Source of the DNA: an uncultured bacterium
Lineage (GTDB): Bacteria > Verrucomicrobiota > Lentisphaeria > Victivallales > UBA1829
DNA: 24,208 nt
Direction of reading: 5' to 3'
Assembly (NCBI GenBank): GCA_949290385.1
Contig: CASERY010000015.1
Span: forward strand, 1-24,208
Position 1 is the first letter of the stretch, and the number at the start of each line of letters is the position of its first letter. The notes below the pieces were generated by a model that was not told the origin of the DNA, did not search any database, and saw only the letters and a list, made by a program, of their open reading frames with translations. Shown here in pieces: positions 11,515 to 17,237 of this stretch. The translations under genes were made by a program, and so were the position numbers.

Positions 11515-12477
11515 TCAGACGCTGGCGGCTCGGACACTTTCACGGCGGATCAGAAGATAGGGTAAAACCGTACGGACTGCATGCTTCCGTCCGCTGATCC
11601 GGTCCTCAATGACGTCAGCGACTGCGGAAGCCATCGCCTGATAATCCGGCGTGATTGTCGTTTGTGGAGGGATGCCGTACCTGGAAAAAAACGTTTGTTC
11701 CGAAGCGATCAGGGAAATATCGTCCGGAACCTGTTTCCCAAACAGGGAAAGTGCATAGGCCGCCAGAATACCGCCGCTTCCACCGGGACAGAAGAGGGCA
11801 TCAATTTTCTGCCTCAGGAGTTTTCCAATGATTTCCAAATATGCCTCATCAGGACCAAAATAGATCAGTGAATGATCCGCGGGAAGTCCTTTTTTCTGAA
11901 GAAAACGGCGGATTGCATCCTGACGGATATCCACGTTTCCTGTGCCGGGGCTTCCATGAATAATACAGCCGATTCTCCTGCATCCATTTTCATAGAGATG
12001 CTCCAGAGCCAGTTCCATGCCCTGTGCCTCGTCAGAACGGACAAGATAGACTTCCTGTGAGTTCAGTTCTGCTTCACGGTCGAGAAGGACCAGCGGAACA
12101 CTGAAACGATCTGCCCAGTGCTGAAAATCCTTGGGCTCGACACCGATTGCCGCTGCTGCACAAAACTGAATGGCATCAAGGCGTTCCAGATTGTCCTGCG
12201 GCAGAATTTCAAGCCGGAATCCACGCCGTGGAAGCTCGCGGGTCAGAGCCATGAGGATCATTTCCACACAGCACTGGACCGGATAGACTGACTGATAAGG
12301 CGTAATGATAACAACATTGCGTTGTTTGTTGGAAAGACGCGGATGATAGGCATACTGTCTGGATATGGCGAAAACACGTTCACGGATTTCTTCGCTGATG
12401 TTCGGATGATGGCTGAATACGCGGGATACCGTGGATGGTGAAACACCCGCAAGTTTGGCTATTTCCTGGATTTTCAT
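11515..12477 (-). CDS. LacI/GalR-family transcriptional regulator
   Basis: It has the N-terminal HTH MKIQEIAKLAGVSPSTVSRVFSHHPNISEEIRERV followed by a periplasmic-binding-protein-like sugar-binding fold. I chose the start at 12477, preceded by AGGAAA. The tracked ORF extends to 12510. Confidence 0.9.
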   Translation of the reverse strand: MKIQEIAKLAGVSPSTVSRVFSHHPNISEEIRERVFAISRQYAYHPRLSNKQRNVVIITPYQSVYPVQCCVEMILMALTRELPRRGFRLEILPQDNLERLDAIQFCAAAAIGVEPKDFQHWADRFSVPLVLLDREAELNSQEVYLVRSDEAQGMELALEHLYENGCRRIGCIIHGSPGTGNVDIRQDAIRRFLQKKGLPADHSLIYFGPDEAYLEIIGKLLRQKIDALFCPGGSGGILAAYALSLFGKQVPDDISLIASEQTFFSRYGIPPQTTITPDYQAMASAVADVIEDRISGRKHAVRTVLPYLLIRRESVRAASV

Positions 12478-12672
12478 AGCATATTTCCTGTTTTTATGCT
12501 TCATTTGCACTATAGCCTGTTCTTTTCATGAAATCAAGTCTTCATTTGCATCATTCTTTTCAGAAAAAGATCCTTTTTTGATTTGTGCGACATTTGTTTG
12601 GAGAGTATTTTTGAACCAGGCAGACGAAAGGCTTGTGTACAATATCCAGCAGACGACAAAGGAGATTTCAGG

Positions 12673-13692
12673 ATGAATTTCGTTTGTACAGTTTCAAAGA
12701 AATCAGATTTTAAGCAGGCAGAGAAAGAAGCATTGAAGCAAATCCGGGAAGGGCTGATTCAAGGAACGGTTTTCGGAAAGGTCGGCGGACCGCTTGCGGC
12801 GTTGGGTTTTCAGTGTGTCCATCCGCAGAAGGTGCCGATGACGGAACAGTCCCGTTTTGACATTGCTTCCGTGGGCAAGATCTTCACTGCGGCATGCTGC
12901 GCACTGCTGGCAGTGGAAGGAAAACTTGATCCTGATGCTCCTTTTACGGAATATCTTCCAGAACATATTCTTGGAAAAGACTGCAACATTACAGTTCGTG
13001 ATCTGGCCATGCACGTGGGAGGTTTTGACAATGCAAAGCCTTATAATTCTTCGGACAAAACTGTATTCCTTCATGAACTTTTTCAGAAACGACCTGTTCG
13101 TCCGCGTCTGACGGAATTTGAATATTCCTGTTCCGGCTTCATTCTGCTCGGCATGATCGTAGAACGGCTTTCCGGCACGAACCTGGAGGACTTTGCACGG
13201 AGCCGCATCTGGGCACCGCTGGGCATGAACCGGACACGATGGACTTCGCCTGGAAACGGCCTTCATGAAGTGGAACACTGGTTTCCCAACCGTGAAGCCG
13301 GACAGCATAACGATGATGTTTGTTTTAACTGCGGTTTTCCGATTGGGAGCGGAAGCTGTTTTTCCACTGCCGGAGACTTGCTGCTGTTTGCCCGGGATAT
13401 GCTGGAGCGCAGGCACTTCCCGGATCTGTACTATGAACTTCAGACACGATGCGCCTTTGAAAAAAATGGTGTCCGCCGCAGTTTTGGCTGGGATATGTCT
13501 GAAGCCCATCGCCCTGCTCATCTTTCTGATAAAACCTTCTACCATTCCGGATGGACAGGACAGTCTATCTGTATTGATCCGGAAAACGAATTTGCTGCAG
13601 TCGTTCTTACGTCCAGAACCGGCGACTGGGATGCCGCCTATGCGGGACGGGTCCATATCCTGGAGAAGCTGGTGCAATGTCATAGGAAATAA
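12673..13692 (+). CDS. Beta-lactamase-fold serine hydrolase (class C / EstB-like esterase family)
   Basis: AAGGAG lies 8 nt before the ATG at 12673. It carries the S-x-x-K nucleophile motif SVGK within FDIASVGKIFTAACCALLAVEGKLDPD, plus a C-terminal HSGWTGQS motif. It is divergent from the LacI gene. Confidence 0.8.
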   Translation: MNFVCTVSKKSDFKQAEKEALKQIREGLIQGTVFGKVGGPLAALGFQCVHPQKVPMTEQSRFDIASVGKIFTAACCALLAVEGKLDPDAPFTEYLPEHILGKDCNITVRDLAMHVGGFDNAKPYNSSDKTVFLHELFQKRPVRPRLTEFEYSCSGFILLGMIVERLSGTNLEDFARSRIWAPLGMNRTRWTSPGNGLHEVEHWFPNREAGQHNDDVCFNCGFPIGSGSCFSTAGDLLLFARDMLERRHFPDLYYELQTRCAFEKNGVRRSFGWDMSEAHRPAHLSDKTFYHSGWTGQSICIDPENEFAAVVLTSRTGDWDAAYAGRVHILEKLVQCHRK

Positions 13693-14961: not shown

Positions 14962-15990
14962 ATGGAAAAAATTAAGATTGCACAGATTGGCGTTACGCAT
15001 GAACATGCCGCTGGAGTCATGGCAACGCTGAGGAATATGCCGGAGGTTTTTGAAATTGCCGGATACGTTGATGATAGCGACAGTACGGCTCCGAAACATC
15101 CGGGTGGATGGCAGAAAACATTCGAGGGACTGAAAAAAATGACAATGGAAGAAGTCTTCGCCATTCCGGAACTCCAGGGGGTTGTTATAGAGACCCCGAA
15201 TACGGAACTGGTTCCGACAGCAATCCGTTGCATGGAGCACAATCTGCCTATGCATATGGACAAGCCGGCCGGCGAAGATGCTGCGCTTTTTCAGATACTG
15301 CTTGATGGCTGTCGCACAAAAAATCTGCCGCTTCAGATGGGATACATGTTCCGAGGGAATCCTGCATTTCAGTTCTGTCTGAAGATTGCACGGGAGAAAT
15401 GGCTTGGCGATATTTTTGAAATTGAGTGTGACATGAACCATTCCTATGGAAATGATCTGTATCAGACGTATCTGGGAAAGTTTAAAGGCGGAATCATGTT
15501 TAATCTTGGCTGCCACCTTATTGATTTTATTGTGGCGATGATGGGAGCGCCTGACACGGTTGTCGCGTTCCTGAAATCGACACCGGATGTTGCGCCGGAG
15601 ATCAAGAACAACTGCCTTGCCATACTGGAGTATCCGCACGCGACAGCAGTTATCCGTTGTTGCAGCCGGGGCGACTTGAGCCACCGTACGCTGAAAATAT
15701 CCGGGACGAAAGGATGGCTTGAACTTTCTCCTCTGGAACGATTTGACAATGAAGCTCTTCTGATGAAGCTTTCTCTTCGTGAAGACCGGCCCGGCTATGC
15801 GGCTGGATTCCATGTGCTTGATTTCGGTGTTCGCCATGACCGCTACCTTGAGCAGATGAACGAATTCGCTTCACTGATTCGTGGGGAAATCCGGAATCCT
15901 TATGACTATGACCATGATGCCTTGGTGGAAAAAGTTCTTCTGGCAGCTTCCGGATATACCGTCTGGAAAAAGGAAACAGGTATTCAGTAA
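14962..15990 (+). CDS. Gfo/Idh/MocA-family NAD(P)-dependent oxidoreductase
   Basis: It has the N-terminal Rossmann segment MEKIKIAQIGVTHEHAAG and the typical family length (342 aa). The C-terminal alpha/beta domain contains GYMFRGNPAF. Confidence 0.85.
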   Translation: MEKIKIAQIGVTHEHAAGVMATLRNMPEVFEIAGYVDDSDSTAPKHPGGWQKTFEGLKKMTMEEVFAIPELQGVVIETPNTELVPTAIRCMEHNLPMHMDKPAGEDAALFQILLDGCRTKNLPLQMGYMFRGNPAFQFCLKIAREKWLGDIFEIECDMNHSYGNDLYQTYLGKFKGGIMFNLGCHLIDFIVAMMGAPDTVVAFLKSTPDVAPEIKNNCLAILEYPHATAVIRCCSRGDLSHRTLKISGTKGWLELSPLERFDNEALLMKLSLREDRPGYAAGFHVLDFGVRHDRYLEQMNEFASLIRGEIRNPYDYDHDALVEKVLLAASGYTVWKKETGIQ

Positions 15991-16445
15991 CACTTTTTCA
16001 AGGAAAACGAACAGGGATTACAGACGGGATTATTCTGCACAAAAAAGGAAAAAATCTGGGATGTGCCTGAAGGATGTTTCTCTTGACAAGTGCATCCCAG
16101 CAAGTCCATGACTGATGATTGGAGGGGGTTGTTTTTTCAGAATACAGCAATGACGACCGGATGGTATTAAATATTCGGAAACAATCTGTAGGATCAGTGT
16201 TTCAGGCAGGCTGGAAACGTCTTTAAGGAGAAATGCCGAATCCTTCTTCCTGAGATACATTCGGGCCTTGAAAGCAATGCTGTCCGGCTGGCGCCGAAAT
16301 GACGGATGAATATCCATGCGATCTGGAGGGGGGAAAACATGAAAAGAGTCCAGTGTTGTGCAGAGGAAAAAGATATCAGCAAGGCTGTTCTTTCGGTTCG
16401 GTTATTTATAAAAGTACACAAAACGAAACAGGCAAGGAGAATGCA

Positions 16446-17237
16446 ATGAAATTGTCTTTTTTGAATAAACCCTATCCAGTTATCAGTGGTATTATGGCTG
16501 GACAGACCCCCGGTGAACTGATTGCGGAGGCCAGGGGCGCAGAAGCAGATGGTGCGCACGGCATTACTGTGGAATTGTTTGACTTCAAGCCGGAATTCCG
16601 GAATACAGATTCTCTGAAAGGAGTCATTGATTCGGTTGCGCTTCCGTTCATGTTTTGTTTTTATCGCAATGACCGCTGGGGAACCAAAAACGACGAGGAA
16701 CGTCAGACATTGCTGCTTGCAGCGGCAGATGCAGGGGCTTCGATGATTGATGTCATGGGGGATTTATATGACCCTTCGCCCATGGAAATCACCCATGACC
16801 GGAAGGCCATTGCAAAACAGAAGCGTCTGATTGAGCGTATTCACAAAAAGGGTGCGGATGTGGTTATGTCTTCACATACGCACTGTGTCCGGACGGCGGA
16901 CGAGACCGTGGAACAGCTGTTGAGTCTGGAATCACGCGGCGCGGATGTAGTAAAACTTGTCTCGACGGTTGATAACGAGGAGGAACTTGCCGAGGCGCTT
17001 CGCACAACGATGCTGCTCCGGCATGAGCTTAAAGTTCCGTTTATTCATCTTTGCAGCGGGAAATTTTCCCGTCCGCACCGTTTTCTATGTCCGGTTTTAG
17101 GTACAAGTATTTTATTTGCAGTGCATCATTATGATCCGCGTTACGGTTATATGCAGCCTACAATCCGCGCAATGAAACAGGTTCTGGACGGTATCCACTG
17201 GGACATAAGCATCGTCTCTCCGCGGAAGACCGACTGA
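16446..17237 (+). CDS. Type I 3-dehydroquinate dehydratase-like protein (AroD fold)
   Basis: AAGGAG lies 6 nt before the ATG at 16446. VVMSSHTH and GADVVKLVS align with the AroD active-site His and the Schiff-base Lys (GADIPKIA in E. coli AroD). No other aro genes are nearby. Confidence 0.65.
   Translation: MKLSFLNKPYPVISGIMAGQTPGELIAEARGAEADGAHGITVELFDFKPEFRNTDSLKGVIDSVALPFMFCFYRNDRWGTKNDEERQTLLLAAADAGASMIDVMGDLYDPSPMEITHDRKAIAKQKRLIERIHKKGADVVMSSHTHCVRTADETVEQLLSLESRGADVVKLVSTVDNEEELAEALRTTMLLRHELKVPFIHLCSGKFSRPHRFLCPVLGTSILFAVHHYDPRYGYMQPTIRAMKQVLDGIHWDISIVSPRKTD

What the first reader, a model, noticed from the sequence alone, without database searches (positions are those of the whole stretch)
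11515..17237. LacI-linked cluster combining an esterase-type serine hydrolase, an SDR epimerase, a Gfo/Idh/MocA oxidoreductase and a stand-alone dehydroquinase-like enzyme
The four enzyme genes all lie on the + strand, divergent from a LacI repressor. The type I dehydroquinase-like gene sits far from any shikimate-pathway genes and keeps the His and Lys (GADVVKLVS) active-site context. I do not recognise this combination as a described pathway. One speculative reading is catabolism of a quinate/shikimate-type cyclitol or of its esters. In that reading the hydrolase releases the cyclitol, the oxidoreductase oxidises it, and the dehydroquinase-like enzyme dehydrates it. A 455-nt gap (15991-16445) before the last gene suggests separate control. 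The SDR member carries the in-frame TAG.
Basis: inference. Interest (0 to 1): 0.5.

Follow-up and report, generated by a model that had tools for sequence, protein, structure and literature searches.

The report
Eroded LacI-linked oxidoreductase/dehydroquinase-like catabolic cassette
The window holds a trimmed, partly broken copy of a gene cassette (a LacI repressor, several NAD-type oxidoreductases and an enzyme with the dehydroquinase fold) that recurs in many gut and sediment bacteria, whose substrate nobody has identified, and whose "dehydroquinase" label is probably a misannotation.

Summary
LacI (11515-12477, -) lies divergent from a beta-lactamase-fold hydrolase, an extended-SDR gene with an in-frame TAG, a Gfo/Idh/MocA oxidoreductase and a type-I-dehydroquinase-fold gene.

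- **Co-conservation:** I fetched 80 loci that encode relatives of the dehydroquinase-like protein. Labels on these genomes (mostly MAGs): Lentisphaerota, Verrucomicrobiota, Planctomycetota, one Spirochaetes, Bacteroidota. LacI, the Gfo enzyme and the SDR recur beside it. The hydrolase appears in only 7 loci.
- **Missing partner:** The commonest neighbour is a PIG3-family enone/quinone reductase (30 of 40 well-covered loci). It is absent here. In the nearest sequenced relative it sits where this window has the 455-nt gap.
- **Not biosynthetic AroD:** The protein scores 34.5 bits against the aroD equivalog cutoff of 139.3 and is 18-20% identical to solved AroD structures. Bacteroidota copies carry TAT signals inside SusC/D loci. 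No AroE-type dehydrogenase occurs in the loci held.
- **Active site:** It keeps the Schiff-base Lys, the His and the Arg213/Gln236 equivalents of AroD.
- **Best reading (inferred):** oxidoreductases make a ketone, the dehydroquinase-like enzyme eliminates the neighbouring hydroxyl, and reductases finish. The substrate is unknown. Quinate is possible but unsupported.
- **Erosion:** This copy looks degraded. Two upstream genes (MFS, AraC) also carry single in-frame TAGs.

The parts
11515..12477 (-). LacI/GalR-family repressor gene (320 aa from the conserved ATG; the mechanical ORF runs to 12510)
   Evidence: Pfam LacI HTH 3.5e-16 and Peripla_BP_3 1.7e-21. Orthologues with 55-87% identity lie next to the dehydroquinase-like gene in 35 of 80 loci. 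The N-terminus MKIQEIAxLAGVSxxTVSRVFSHHP is conserved.
12478..12672 (.). Divergent control region. Features: lacI promoter-like TTGATT-17-TATAGT on the minus strand (12537-12509); two exact TTCATTTGCA copies (12500-12509, 12541-12550); two short palindromes TTTCATGAAA (12524-12533) and TTTCAGAAA (12558-12566); operon promoter-like TTGTGC (12583-12588), 17 nt, TATTTT (12606-12611).
   Evidence: These blocks are conserved in position in about 30 orthologous intergenic regions. No classical long LacI-type palindrome was found. The operator assignment is inference.
12673..13692 (+). Cytoplasmic beta-lactamase-fold serine hydrolase (esterase, amidase or D-peptidase type)
   Evidence: PF00144 2.8e-47. 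The best solved relatives are a D-amino acid amidase and an alkaline D-peptidase, E about 1e-13. SxxK = SVGK and an HSG motif are read from the translation. It accompanies the cassette in only 7 other loci.
13918..14925 (+). Divergent extended-SDR (epimerase/dehydratase-like) gene interrupted by an in-frame TAG at 13990-13992 (codon 25)
   Evidence: The TAG is also in L082 and L084. The position is Ala in 17 of 19 orthologues, and L001 has GCG there. The family profile's best solved relative is a dTDP-glucose 4,6-dehydratase-like protein at only 3.9e-6.
14962..15990 (+). Gfo/Idh/MocA-family NAD(P) oxidoreductase
   Evidence: PF22725 8.3e-16 and PF02894 3.5e-8. Weak similarity to aldose-aldose oxidoreductase, YhhX, a glucuronide 3-dehydrogenase and DgpA2. 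Orthologues of 49-87% identity lie beside the dehydroquinase-like gene in 40 of 80 loci. DKP, GYMFRGNP and NLGCHLID motifs are conserved.
15991..16445 (.). 455-nt non-coding gap at the position where the nearest relative carries a PIG3-family MDR reductase gene
   Evidence: L001 has a 324-aa ORF (8994-9968) between its Gfo and dehydroquinase-like genes. It passes TIGR02824 at 323 bits against a cutoff of 296.8. No remnant is detectable in the window by tblastn or profile HMM. The gap sequence occurs only in this species. There is no Rfam hit and no convincing promoter or terminator. One TTTC-N3-GAAA palindrome lies at 15996-16006.
16446..17237 (+). Type-I-dehydroquinase-fold protein (263 aa), member of a distinct and highly conserved subfamily; predicted Schiff-base dehydratase or beta-eliminase
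   Evidence: PF01487 68 bits. TIGR01093 aroD scores 34.5 against a cutoff of 139.3. More than 500 homologues, the listed ones 64-90% identical. AlphaFold model pLDDT 91, best PDB matches AroD at TM 0.75-0.78 and 18-20% identity. H144, K170, R212, F224 and Q237 align with AroD H143, K170, R213, F225 and Q236.

Best explanation
This is a reduced, partly inactivated copy of a conserved cassette found mostly in PVC-group bacteria (Lentisphaerota, Verrucomicrobiota, Planctomycetota). A LacI regulator probably represses it, and it is probably catabolic.

In its full form the cassette encodes LacI, one or two Gfo/Idh/MocA dehydrogenases, an extended SDR, a Tdh/IolM-like MDR dehydrogenase, a classical SDR, a PIG3-family MDR reductase and the dehydroquinase-fold enzyme.

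Proposed mechanism (inferred, not shown):
1. A dehydrogenase oxidises a secondary alcohol of a polyhydroxylated substrate, probably one carrying a carboxylate (a cyclitol acid or sugar acid), to a ketone.
2. The dehydroquinase-fold enzyme forms a Lys170 Schiff base with that ketone and, with His144, eliminates the beta-hydroxyl or beta-alkoxy group to give an enone.
3. The PIG3-type reductase and the other reductases then reduce the C=C bond and the ketone. The net result is a deoxygenation that consumes reducing equivalents.

In some Lentisphaeria a cytoplasmic beta-lactamase-fold hydrolase has been added as first gene. It presumably frees the substrate from an ester or amide.

In this species the cassette has lost the PIG3 reductase, the second MDR and the classical SDR, and its extended SDR carries a nonsense TAG. 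The pathway is probably truncated or non-functional here.
For: - Co-conservation. Among 40 loci with at least 6 kb on both sides, PIG3-MDR is present in 30, LacI in 24, Gfo in 24, the second MDR in 18, the classical SDR in 18, the extended SDR in 13 and the hydrolase in 7.
- LacI orthologues are 55-87% identical with a nearly invariant HTH, and the promoter-region blocks are conserved.
- Family assignments of the extra genes.
- A natural fusion of a dehydroquinase-like domain with a classical SDR (P0474) ties the two activities together.
- A PIG3-MDR gene lies directly beside dehydroquinase-like genes in an unrelated Bacteroidota locus, L089.
- The catalytic Lys/His and the equivalents of AroD Arg213/Gln236, which I recall as carboxylate contacts in AroD, are invariant in 25 homologues. 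The model is confident and AroD-like.
- Not biosynthetic AroD: (only 876 representative clusters reach E<=0.001), plus the TAT signals.
- Erosion in this species: c2 and c7 are absent without remnants; L001 has c2 in the gap position; the TAG recurs in three assemblies; the neighbouring MFS and AraC genes also carry a single in-frame TAG.
Against: - No substrate is identified, and no transporter, kinase or aldolase is conserved with the cassette. Catabolism is therefore inferred mainly from the LacI regulator and the hydrolase.
- The order of reactions is chemical reasoning only.
- The N-terminal half of the active site differs from AroD, so even the elimination chemistry is an extrapolation from the conserved Lys/His.
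- The remaining genes here (LacI, hydrolase, Gfo, dehydroquinase-like) are intact, and the dehydroquinase-like protein is 100% identical in 8 contigs. A shorter pathway may still work in this species.
- Many of the loci are MAG contigs, so their phylum labels can be wrong.
Confidence: 0.5

Rival explanations
1. The cassette catabolises quinate, shikimate or their esters (for example chlorogenate). The hydrolase frees quinate, a Gfo or SDR dehydrogenase makes 3-dehydroquinate, and the dehydroquinase-like enzyme is a true catabolic dehydroquinase. In the full cassette, reductases would then reduce 3-dehydroshikimate, giving a reductive, electron-sink route of the kind reported biochemically for lactobacilli (my recollection).
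For: - The fold and the catalytic Lys/His are those of AroD, and the Arg213/Phe225/Gln236 equivalents are conserved.
- The product of a dehydroquinase is an enone, which suits the tightly linked PIG3-type reductase.
- Hosts are gut, digester and sediment anaerobes exposed to plant material.
- No genes for a reductive quinate route are described in the searched literature, so there is a vacancy to fill.
Against: - No AroE/YdiB-type quinate/shikimate dehydrogenase occurs in the loci held (about 90), and no shikimate gene was found in the window.
- AroD residues Glu46/Arg48 align to variable columns and Glu86 to Asn75/Asp76.
- The aroD equivalog score is a quarter of the cutoff.
- Bacteroidota members are TAT-exported in SusC/D loci with sulfatase, a GH10-like gene and glycoside-3-dehydrogenase-like genes.
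- The hydrolase is an occasional add-on.
Confidence: 0.2
2. The dehydroquinase-fold protein is a metal-independent, Schiff-base counterpart of the Mn-dependent 3-keto-glycoside eliminases. A Gfo-type dehydrogenase oxidises a glycoside or acidic sugar (uronide or ulosonic acid) to a keto-sugar. The enzyme then expels the beta substituent (aglycone or hydroxyl), and reductases regenerate a normal sugar. The route would be cytoplasmic in PVC bacteria and periplasmic in Bacteroidota.
For: - Bacteroidota copies have TAT signals and lie in SusC/D loci.
- In L087 a protein scoring 629 bits on the BT_2158 glycoside 3-dehydrogenase model (cutoff 750) lies two genes away, and another TAT-type Gfo lies two genes upstream.
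- The window's Gfo has a glucuronide 3-dehydrogenase and the C-glycoside 3-oxidase DgpA2 among its nearest solved relatives, though weakly, E about 1e-6.
- The known oxidise-eliminate-hydrate-reduce route uses the same logic (PMC10628242).
Against: - The known eliminases are Mn-dependent enzymes, and no dehydroquinase-fold eliminase is mentioned in that paper.
- The window's Gfo is not a member of the BT_2158/BT_2159 families.
- No glycoside hydrolase or sugar transporter is conserved with the PVC cassette.
- Conservation of the Arg213/Gln236 equivalents argues for an acid rather than a neutral glycoside.
Confidence: 0.2
3. The database annotation is correct. The gene is the organism's biosynthetic type I 3-dehydroquinate dehydratase, placed by chance next to unrelated oxidoreductases.
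For: It passes the Pfam PF01487 threshold and keeps Lys and His. Sources name homologues 'type I 3-dehydroquinate dehydratase'.
Against: - TIGR01093 scores 34.5 against a cutoff of 139.3.
- Only 18-25% identity to AroD.
- Tight linkage to LacI and the oxidoreductases across phyla.
- TAT-exported paralogues, two tandem copies in L089, and fusions to an SDR or a phosphoesterase.
Confidence: 0.04

Closest known systems
Type I 3-dehydroquinate dehydratase AroD (EC 4.2.1.10; e.g. Salmonella 1QFE/3M7W)
   Same: The (beta/alpha)8 fold (TM 0.75-0.78), the Pfam family PF01487, the Schiff-base Lys on strand 6 and the His on strand 5, and the equivalents of Arg213, Phe225 and Gln236.
   Different: 18-25% identity. 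It fails the aroD equivalog model. The Glu46/Arg48/Glu86 equivalents are not conserved. It has a family-specific invariant GDLYDPS insertion after strand 4. There is no shikimate-gene context. It is LacI-linked and sits among oxidoreductases. Bacteroidota members are TAT-exported.
Quinate/shikimate catabolic clusters (qui of Acinetobacter, qsu of Corynebacterium, qut of fungi; recalled from memory)
   Same: A dehydroquinase-type enzyme under a dedicated regulator, next to a dehydrogenase. It is catabolic rather than biosynthetic.
   Different: Those clusters carry an AroE/YdiB-type or PQQ quinate dehydrogenase, a dehydroshikimate dehydratase and a transporter, and they feed protocatechuate degradation. 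The AroE/YdiB-type dehydrogenase is absent and no transporter family recurs with the cassette. The PQQ dehydrogenase, the dehydroshikimate dehydratase and the protocatechuate genes were not searched for. Instead there are Gfo, SDR and MDR reductases.
Oxidative 3-keto-glycoside cleavage systems (Bacteroides BT2156-2160; Agrobacterium GlycDH/AtOGE/AtHYD/Gfo; DgpA-C), PMC10628242
   Same: The logic of NAD-dependent oxidation next to a leaving group, followed by beta-elimination and then reduction. Gfo/Idh/MocA enzymes are present. In Bacteroidota the dehydroquinase-like gene lies near BT_2158-like genes.
   Different: The eliminase in those systems is a Mn-dependent enzyme, described in the paper as a Mn2+ active site that arose by convergent evolution. 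It is not a Lys Schiff-base enzyme. The window's Gfo is not an orthologue of those dehydrogenases.
Schiff-base sugar-acid dehydratases of the DHDPS/NAL family (e.g. L-2-keto-3-deoxyarabinonate dehydratase) and the oxidise-dehydrate-reduce logic of bile-acid 7-dehydroxylation (recalled from memory)
   Same: Precedents for a Lys Schiff-base TIM barrel doing dehydration on a keto acid, and for dehydroxylation by flanking redox steps in gut anaerobes.
   Different: There is no sequence relationship, and the substrates and gene families are different. The analogy is mechanistic only.

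Membership tests
Type I 3-dehydroquinate dehydratase, biosynthetic AroD | Matches the curated equivalog model TIGR01093 above its cutoff | tested here: not met
   34.5 bits against a cutoff of 139.3
Type I 3-dehydroquinate dehydratase, biosynthetic AroD | DHquinase_I fold and Pfam PF01487 membership | tested here: met
   68.1 bits against a cutoff of 22.2. AlphaFold model pLDDT 91, with AroD structures as top Foldseek hits at TM 0.75-0.78.
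Type I 3-dehydroquinate dehydratase, biosynthetic AroD | Schiff-base Lys170 and general acid/base His143 | tested here: met
   K170 and H144 are invariant in 25 homologues and align with AroD K170/H143
Type I 3-dehydroquinate dehydratase, biosynthetic AroD | Substrate-binding and helper residues Glu46, Arg48, Arg82, Glu86, Arg213, Gln236 | tested here: inconclusive
   R212, Q237 and F224 are conserved. Arg82 aligns to Y73, with invariant R74 one position away. E86 aligns to N75/D76. E46 and R48 fall on variable columns in the plant DHQ-SDH alignment, and hhalign does not align that region. No coordinates were available to check the pocket.
Type I 3-dehydroquinate dehydratase, biosynthetic AroD | Cytoplasmic enzyme of the shikimate pathway, the only dehydroquinase in the genome | not testable with these tools
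   The whole genome is not available. What I could check: no shikimate gene was found in the window, no AroE homologue occurs in the loci held, and TAT signals are present on Bacteroidota members.
Quinate/shikimate catabolic cluster | Quinate/shikimate dehydrogenase of the AroE/YdiB type adjacent | tested here: not met
   tblastn with E. coli AroE (sequence recalled from memory) gave no hit below E=0.2 in about 1.3 Mb of loci plus the window
Quinate/shikimate catabolic cluster | Dehydroshikimate dehydratase and a protocatechuate route, or a dedicated transporter | not tested
   I ran no search with reference sequences for a dehydroshikimate dehydratase, protocatechuate genes or a PQQ quinate dehydrogenase. 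In the clustering of ORFs flanking the cassette, the largest groups were a prepilin-like protein, an AraC-type regulator, a further Gfo-like protein and a lactonase; no transporter family recurred.
Oxidative 3-keto-glycoside cleavage pathway | Glycoside 3-dehydrogenase of the BT_2158/BT_2159 or GMC type | tested here: not met
   The window's Gfo does not hit NF058561 or NF058563. Its solved relatives are weak, E 5.4e-9 to 2.4e-6 for the top four. BT_2158-like genes do occur near the Bacteroidota homologues.
Oxidative 3-keto-glycoside cleavage pathway | Mn-dependent beta-eliminase and hydratase | tested here: not met
   No such gene is in the window's cluster or among the main gene groups that recur with the cassette and were examined
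LacI/GalR transcription regulators | N-terminal LacI HTH plus periplasmic-binding-protein-like effector domain | tested here: met
   PF00356 3.5e-16 and PF13377 1.7e-21. No equivalog model reaches its cutoff, so the effector is unknown.
LacI/GalR transcription regulators | Palindromic operator of 14-20 bp near the regulated promoter | tested here: inconclusive
   No long inverted repeat in 12430-12700. There are only two 9-10 bp palindromes of the type TTTC-N1-2-GAAA and two direct TTCATTTGCA copies, conserved across loci.
Gfo/Idh/MocA oxidoreductases | N-terminal Rossmann domain with an EKP-type motif, plus the C-terminal alpha/beta domain | tested here: met
   The C-terminal domains pass. 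PF01408 is not detected, but conserved IGxxHEH, DKP and GYMFRGNP motifs are present in 32 orthologues.
Extended short-chain dehydrogenases/reductases | An uninterrupted reading frame with GxxGxxG and YxxxK | tested here: not met
   The motifs are present, but the TAG at codon 25 separates the glycine-rich loop from the rest

The most novel reading that the evidence does not exclude
The dehydroquinase-fold proteins of this subfamily are a new class of cofactor-independent, Lys-Schiff-base beta-eliminases or dehydratases. They work with Gfo, SDR and MDR oxidoreductases in an undescribed oxidise-eliminate-reduce pathway for an acidic sugar, a glycoside or a cyclitol acid. The pathway would be cytoplasmic and LacI-controlled in PVC bacteria, and TAT-exported inside polysaccharide-utilisation loci in Bacteroidota. 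It would be a second, convergent solution to the chemistry done by the Mn-dependent 3-keto-glycoside eliminases.
Probability: 0.3. Interest if true: 0.7.

Novelty: new variant of a known kind. Interest (0 to 1): 0.45.

Why it matters
Several hundred predicted proteins in public data are labelled "type I 3-dehydroquinate dehydratase" although they very probably do something else. The error would make metabolic reconstructions of Lentisphaerota, Planctomycetota, Verrucomicrobiota and some Bacteroidota wrongly credit them with a shikimate-pathway step.

The cassette is compact, strongly conserved (the dehydroquinase-like protein is 55-92% identical across the fetched loci) and present in cultured strains: Victivallis vadensis DSM 14823, Geminisphaera colitermitum TAV2, Membranihabitans maritimus and Mariniphaga sediminis. 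Its function can therefore be tested directly.

If it is a new elimination or deoxygenation route for plant- or algal-derived acids or glycosides, it adds a pathway to gut and sediment carbon turnover and a new reaction type to the dehydroquinase fold. For this particular genome the practical message is smaller: its copy is trimmed and partly broken.

Tried and rejected
1. **Remnant of the PIG3-type or second MDR gene in the gap or elsewhere.** tblastn and profile HMMs with filters off found nothing. The gap has no similarity outside this species.
2. **A structured RNA, promoter or terminator in the gap.** Rfam at E<=1 gave only chance hits. The promoter and terminator scans were at or below shuffle expectation.
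3. **A classical LacI palindrome.** None was found. The short TTTC-N1-3-GAAA palindromes are enriched (16 against 5.2 expected; 4 lie in the cassette's three intergenic regions), but they are too short and AT-rich to be called operators.
4. **TAG read as one particular amino acid.** The three in-frame TAGs replace Ser/Thr, Gln and Ala respectively, so a clean reassignment is not supported. The chance that three nonsense codons are all TAG is about 0.05-0.09, which is not remarkable. Other cassette-carrying genomes show one mid-gene in-frame TAG (Gfo of L067); the remaining stops sit at gene ends.
5. **AroE/YdiB in the neighbourhoods.** None.
6. **Recurrent transporter, kinase, aldolase or glycosidase families around the PVC cassettes.** None was seen among the largest ORF groups. 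These were PVC prepilin-like proteins, AraC regulators, a further Gfo, a lactonase in 4 loci and a large, unscanned ORF family in 4 loci that I read as rhamnosidase-like.
7. **Literature.** No paper in the library links a dehydroquinase-like protein to Gfo/LacI clusters, to polysaccharide-utilisation loci or to reductive quinate metabolism.
8. **AlphaFold-database fold search.** That library was not available.
9. **Closer solved homologues of the SDR.** None by single sequence and only remote ones by profile.

Full report
**1. What is in the sequence**

- LacI lies on the minus strand. Its mechanical ORF runs 11515-12510, but all orthologues start at MKIQEIA, which is the ATG at 12477.
- On the plus strand follow four genes:
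  - a cytoplasmic beta-lactamase-fold serine hydrolase (12673-13692, PF00144 2.8e-47);
  - a very divergent extended SDR (13918-14925);
  - a Gfo/Idh/MocA oxidoreductase (14962-15990);
  - after 455 nt, a DHquinase_I-family protein (16446-17237; PF01487 68 bits).
- The SDR reading frame carries one TAG at 13990-13992, between the GATGAMG nucleotide-binding loop and the rest of the protein.
- The rest of the window encodes a flotillin-like protein, an M32 carboxypeptidase, a ceramidase-like protein, an MFS transporter, an AraC regulator, a Fur/PerR-like regulator, a QueD-like protein, a sodium:solute symporter, a LysR regulator and a dienelactone-hydrolase-like protein. No shikimate-pathway gene was found.
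- A database protein identical to the truncated AraC call comes from a contig of 24,208 bp, so the window is probably a whole contig.
- The nearest relatives are uncultured gut Lentisphaeria/Victivallales.

**2. Is the grouping conserved?**

The dehydroquinase-like protein has more than 500 homologues. The best 120 are 64-90% identical.

Using an alignment of 25 of them (A1) I fetched 80 genomic loci. I searched these with the window's proteins and clustered all ORFs in them.
- LacI (55-87% identity), the Gfo enzyme (49-87%) and the SDR (50-85%) recur next to the dehydroquinase-like gene.
- The carrier genomes are labelled Lentisphaerota, Verrucomicrobiota (including cultured Geminisphaera colitermitum TAV2), Planctomycetota and one Spirochaetes MAG. 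Cultured Victivallis vadensis DSM 14823 also carries the cassette (L036).

Counts among the 40 loci with at least 6 kb on both sides:

| Neighbour of the dehydroquinase-like gene | Loci (of 40) |
|---|---|
| PIG3-family MDR reductase (TIGR02824, 323 bits against cutoff 296.8) | 30 |
| LacI | 24 |
| Gfo | 24 |
| Tdh/IolM-like MDR | 18 |
| Classical SDR | 18 |
| Extended SDR | 13 |
| Beta-lactamase-fold hydrolase | 7 |

Further Gfo, epimerase-like, aldo-keto-reductase-like and lactonase genes appear sporadically. No transporter, kinase, aldolase or glycosidase family recurs.

**3. This copy is reduced**

The closest other genome, L001, is about 80% identical in DNA. Its gene order is LacI, classical SDR, MDR, extended SDR, Gfo, PIG3-MDR, dehydroquinase-like.
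- Its PIG3-MDR gene (8994-9968) occupies exactly the position of the window's 455-nt gap.
- In the window there is no detectable remnant of that gene or of the other MDR.
- The gap sequence is found only in this species.
- The gap has no Rfam match and no convincing promoter or terminator.

The gap is therefore better read as the site of a gene loss or replacement than as a designed regulatory spacer. In other genomes the dehydroquinase-like gene is the first gene after LacI (L036, L043, L053).

The SDR's TAG is present in two more assemblies of the same species (L082, L084). It replaces a residue that is Ala in 17 of 19 orthologues, and L001 has GCG there. Restarting at the next ATG would remove the nucleotide-binding loop, so the enzyme is probably inactive unless the TAG is suppressed.

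**4. The TAGs**

Two more genes just upstream carry exactly one in-frame TAG each and are otherwise intact.
- The MFS transporter (8544-9734, minus strand) has a TAG at codon 24, where homologues have Ser (102) or Thr (17).
- The AraC regulator (9888-10796, minus strand) has a TAG at codon 248, where homologues have Gln in 111 of 119.

Three different ancestral residues (Ser, Gln, Ala) argue against reassignment of TAG to one amino acid. CAG>TAG and TCG>TAG are ordinary one-step nonsense changes. The chance that three nonsense codons are all TAG is only about 0.05-0.09. Other cassette-carrying genomes show one mid-gene in-frame TAG (the Gfo gene of L067); the other stops lie at gene ends.

I read this as gene decay in a sugar-utilisation neighbourhood. 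Three interrupted genes out of about 17 is a high proportion, and a suppressor tRNA elsewhere in the genome cannot be excluded.

**5. What the dehydroquinase-like protein is**

- It belongs to the Pfam family but scores 34.5 bits on the aroD equivalog model, whose cutoff is 139.3.
- A profile of the subfamily finds plant DHQ-SDH at 5e-13 and bacterial AroD at only 4e-6, over the C-terminal half.
- In a library of 1.84 billion representatives only 876 clusters reach E<=0.001 and 185 reach 1e-30. The subfamily is therefore discrete.
- An AlphaFold model is confident (pLDDT 91). Its best solved matches are AroD structures at TM 0.75-0.78 and 18-20% identity. No closer structure exists.
- Profile alignment to E. 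coli AroD (sequence recalled from memory; its numbering checks out) pairs H144, K170, R212, F224 and Q237 with H143, K170, R213, F225 and Q236. E86 falls on N75/D76, and the Glu46/Arg48 strand is not alignable. In the plant alignment those two positions are variable.
- The subfamily has its own invariant signature, including PEFR, FYRND and a GDLYDPS insertion.
- Bacteroidota members carry an N-terminal twin-arginine signal (RRDFIKN). They sit in SusC/D loci with a sulfatase, a GH10-like gene, TAT-type Gfo enzymes (one scoring 629 bits on the BT_2158 glycoside 3-dehydrogenase model), a cytochrome-c-linked GSDH-type dehydrogenase, a PIG3-MDR and a conserved 519-aa membrane protein.
- Natural fusions exist with a classical SDR and with a metallophosphoesterase.
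- No AroE/YdiB homologue occurs in any locus held.

All of this argues against a biosynthetic AroD.

**6. Mechanism I think most likely**

What is shown:
- a regulator and a battery of NAD(P) oxidoreductases are genetically tied to a dehydroquinase-fold enzyme;
- that enzyme keeps the Schiff-base machinery and the equivalents of AroD Arg213/Gln236.

What is inferred:
1. A dehydrogenase creates a ketone.
2. The Lys170 imine/enamine chemistry eliminates the beta-hydroxyl or beta-alkoxy group to give an enone.
3. The PIG3-type reductase reduces the double bond, and another reductase reduces the ketone.

This would be a reductive deoxygenation, useful as a catabolic step or an electron sink in fermenters. 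The hydrolase, where present as first operon gene, would deconjugate the substrate.

The substrate is open. I rate 3-dehydroquinate from quinate at about 0.2, and a keto-sugar, uronide or ulosonate in an oxidative glycoside-cleavage-like route at about 0.2. The rest is unassigned.

In this species only LacI, the hydrolase, Gfo and the dehydroquinase-like enzyme look intact. The pathway is probably truncated or dead, although the dehydroquinase-like protein itself is identical in 8 contigs.

**7. Regulation**

The 195-nt divergent region has no classical long palindrome. Aligned against about 30 orthologous regions, it shows conserved blocks:
- a lacI promoter-like TTGATT-17-TATAGT on the minus strand;
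- two exact TTCATTTGCA copies 41 nt apart;
- two short palindromes (TTTCATGAAA, TTTCAGAAA);
- an operon promoter-like TTGTGC-17-TATTTT.

Palindromes of the form TTTC-N1-3-GAAA number 16 in the window against 5.2 expected. Four of them fall in the cassette's three intergenic regions, including 13848 upstream of the SDR and 15996 in the gap. This hints at common control but does not show it.

**8. Comparison with the known, and novelty**

The closest families are listed in the report sections.
- The protein is a member of the dehydroquinase fold and Pfam family.
- It fails the test for the AroD orthologue group.
- The cluster fails the adjacent AroE/YdiB-type dehydrogenase test for a quinate cluster; the other defining genes were not searched for. 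It also fails the defining-feature tests for the known 3-keto-glycoside pathway.
- I found no description of it in the searchable literature.

I rate it a new variant of a known kind: an uncharacterised, widely distributed subfamily in an undescribed cassette. Interest is moderate (0.45), because the function is still a hypothesis and this particular copy is degraded.

Noticed in passing
window 8544-9734 (-), TAG at 9663-9665: An MFS transporter is intact over 396 codons except for one in-frame TAG at codon 24. Homologues are 81-90% identical, and some are labelled fucose permease. They have Ser (102) or Thr (17) at that position. A 364-aa truncated call from another sample (P0122) is consistent with the same TAG there.
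   Followed up: yes
window 9888-10796 (-), TAG at 10053-10055: An AraC-family regulator (cupin plus HTH) has one in-frame TAG at codon 248, in the middle of the HTH_18 domain. The frame continues with conserved sequence to a TAA 54 codons later. Homologues have Gln at that position in 111 of 119 cases. Together with the SDR this makes three TAG-interrupted genes within 6 kb and none interrupted by TGA or TAA. It could be gene decay or tolerated amber codons. This needs the whole genome.
   Followed up: partly
window 10797-11514: A 718-nt stretch between AraC and LacI has no ORF longer than 78 aa and no similarity to the fetched loci except a 53-nt match to L007.
   Followed up: partly
window 2122-2417: A 66-nt tandem repeat (4.5 copies, 89% matches) lies inside the flotillin/SPFH-like gene 1426-3123. 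It encodes repeated ...RRIAVKQAEAAALSGEAEADKQ... units and coincides with a local GC rise to about 52%. This is the only gene in the window that ends in TAG, and a TAA follows 9 codons later.
   Followed up: no
loci L081, L087, L088 (Bacteroidota), genes just downstream of the dehydroquinase-like gene: A conserved membrane protein of 519-521 aa, with only a weak or faint DoxX hit, follows the TAT-exported dehydroquinase-like gene in three independent SusC/D loci. A protein of 452-453 aa with no family match precedes it in two of them. These may be further parts of the periplasmic version of the system.
   Followed up: partly
proteins P0474 and P0478 (representative library): Natural fusions exist of a dehydroquinase-like domain with a classical SDR (501 aa) and with a calcineurin-like metallophosphoesterase (524 aa).
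   Followed up: partly
locus L089 8248-10538: Two tandem TAT-type dehydroquinase-like genes lie next to a PIG3-family MDR, a cytochrome-c/GSDH-type dehydrogenase, a DUF6797-cytochrome c protein, an FAD-linked oxidase and an FAA-hydrolase-family gene in a Bacteroidota scaffold.
   Followed up: no
window 17625-18742: A Fur-family (PerR-like) regulator gene is followed by a QueD/PTPS-like gene. That gene's product ends in a CxxC...CxxC zinc-ribbon-like tail (CPLCGVALVDGVCPKCGYKKH), which is unusual for QueD.
   Followed up: no
window 8006-8084: tRNA-Pro (CGG) is the only tRNA gene in the window. No suppressor-type tRNA is present locally.
   Followed up: yes
window 12524-16006: Short palindromes TTTC-N1-3-GAAA are enriched in the window (16 against 5.2 expected). 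Seven of the 16 lie in the 3.5 kb of the cassette, including all three of its intergenic regions.
   Followed up: partly
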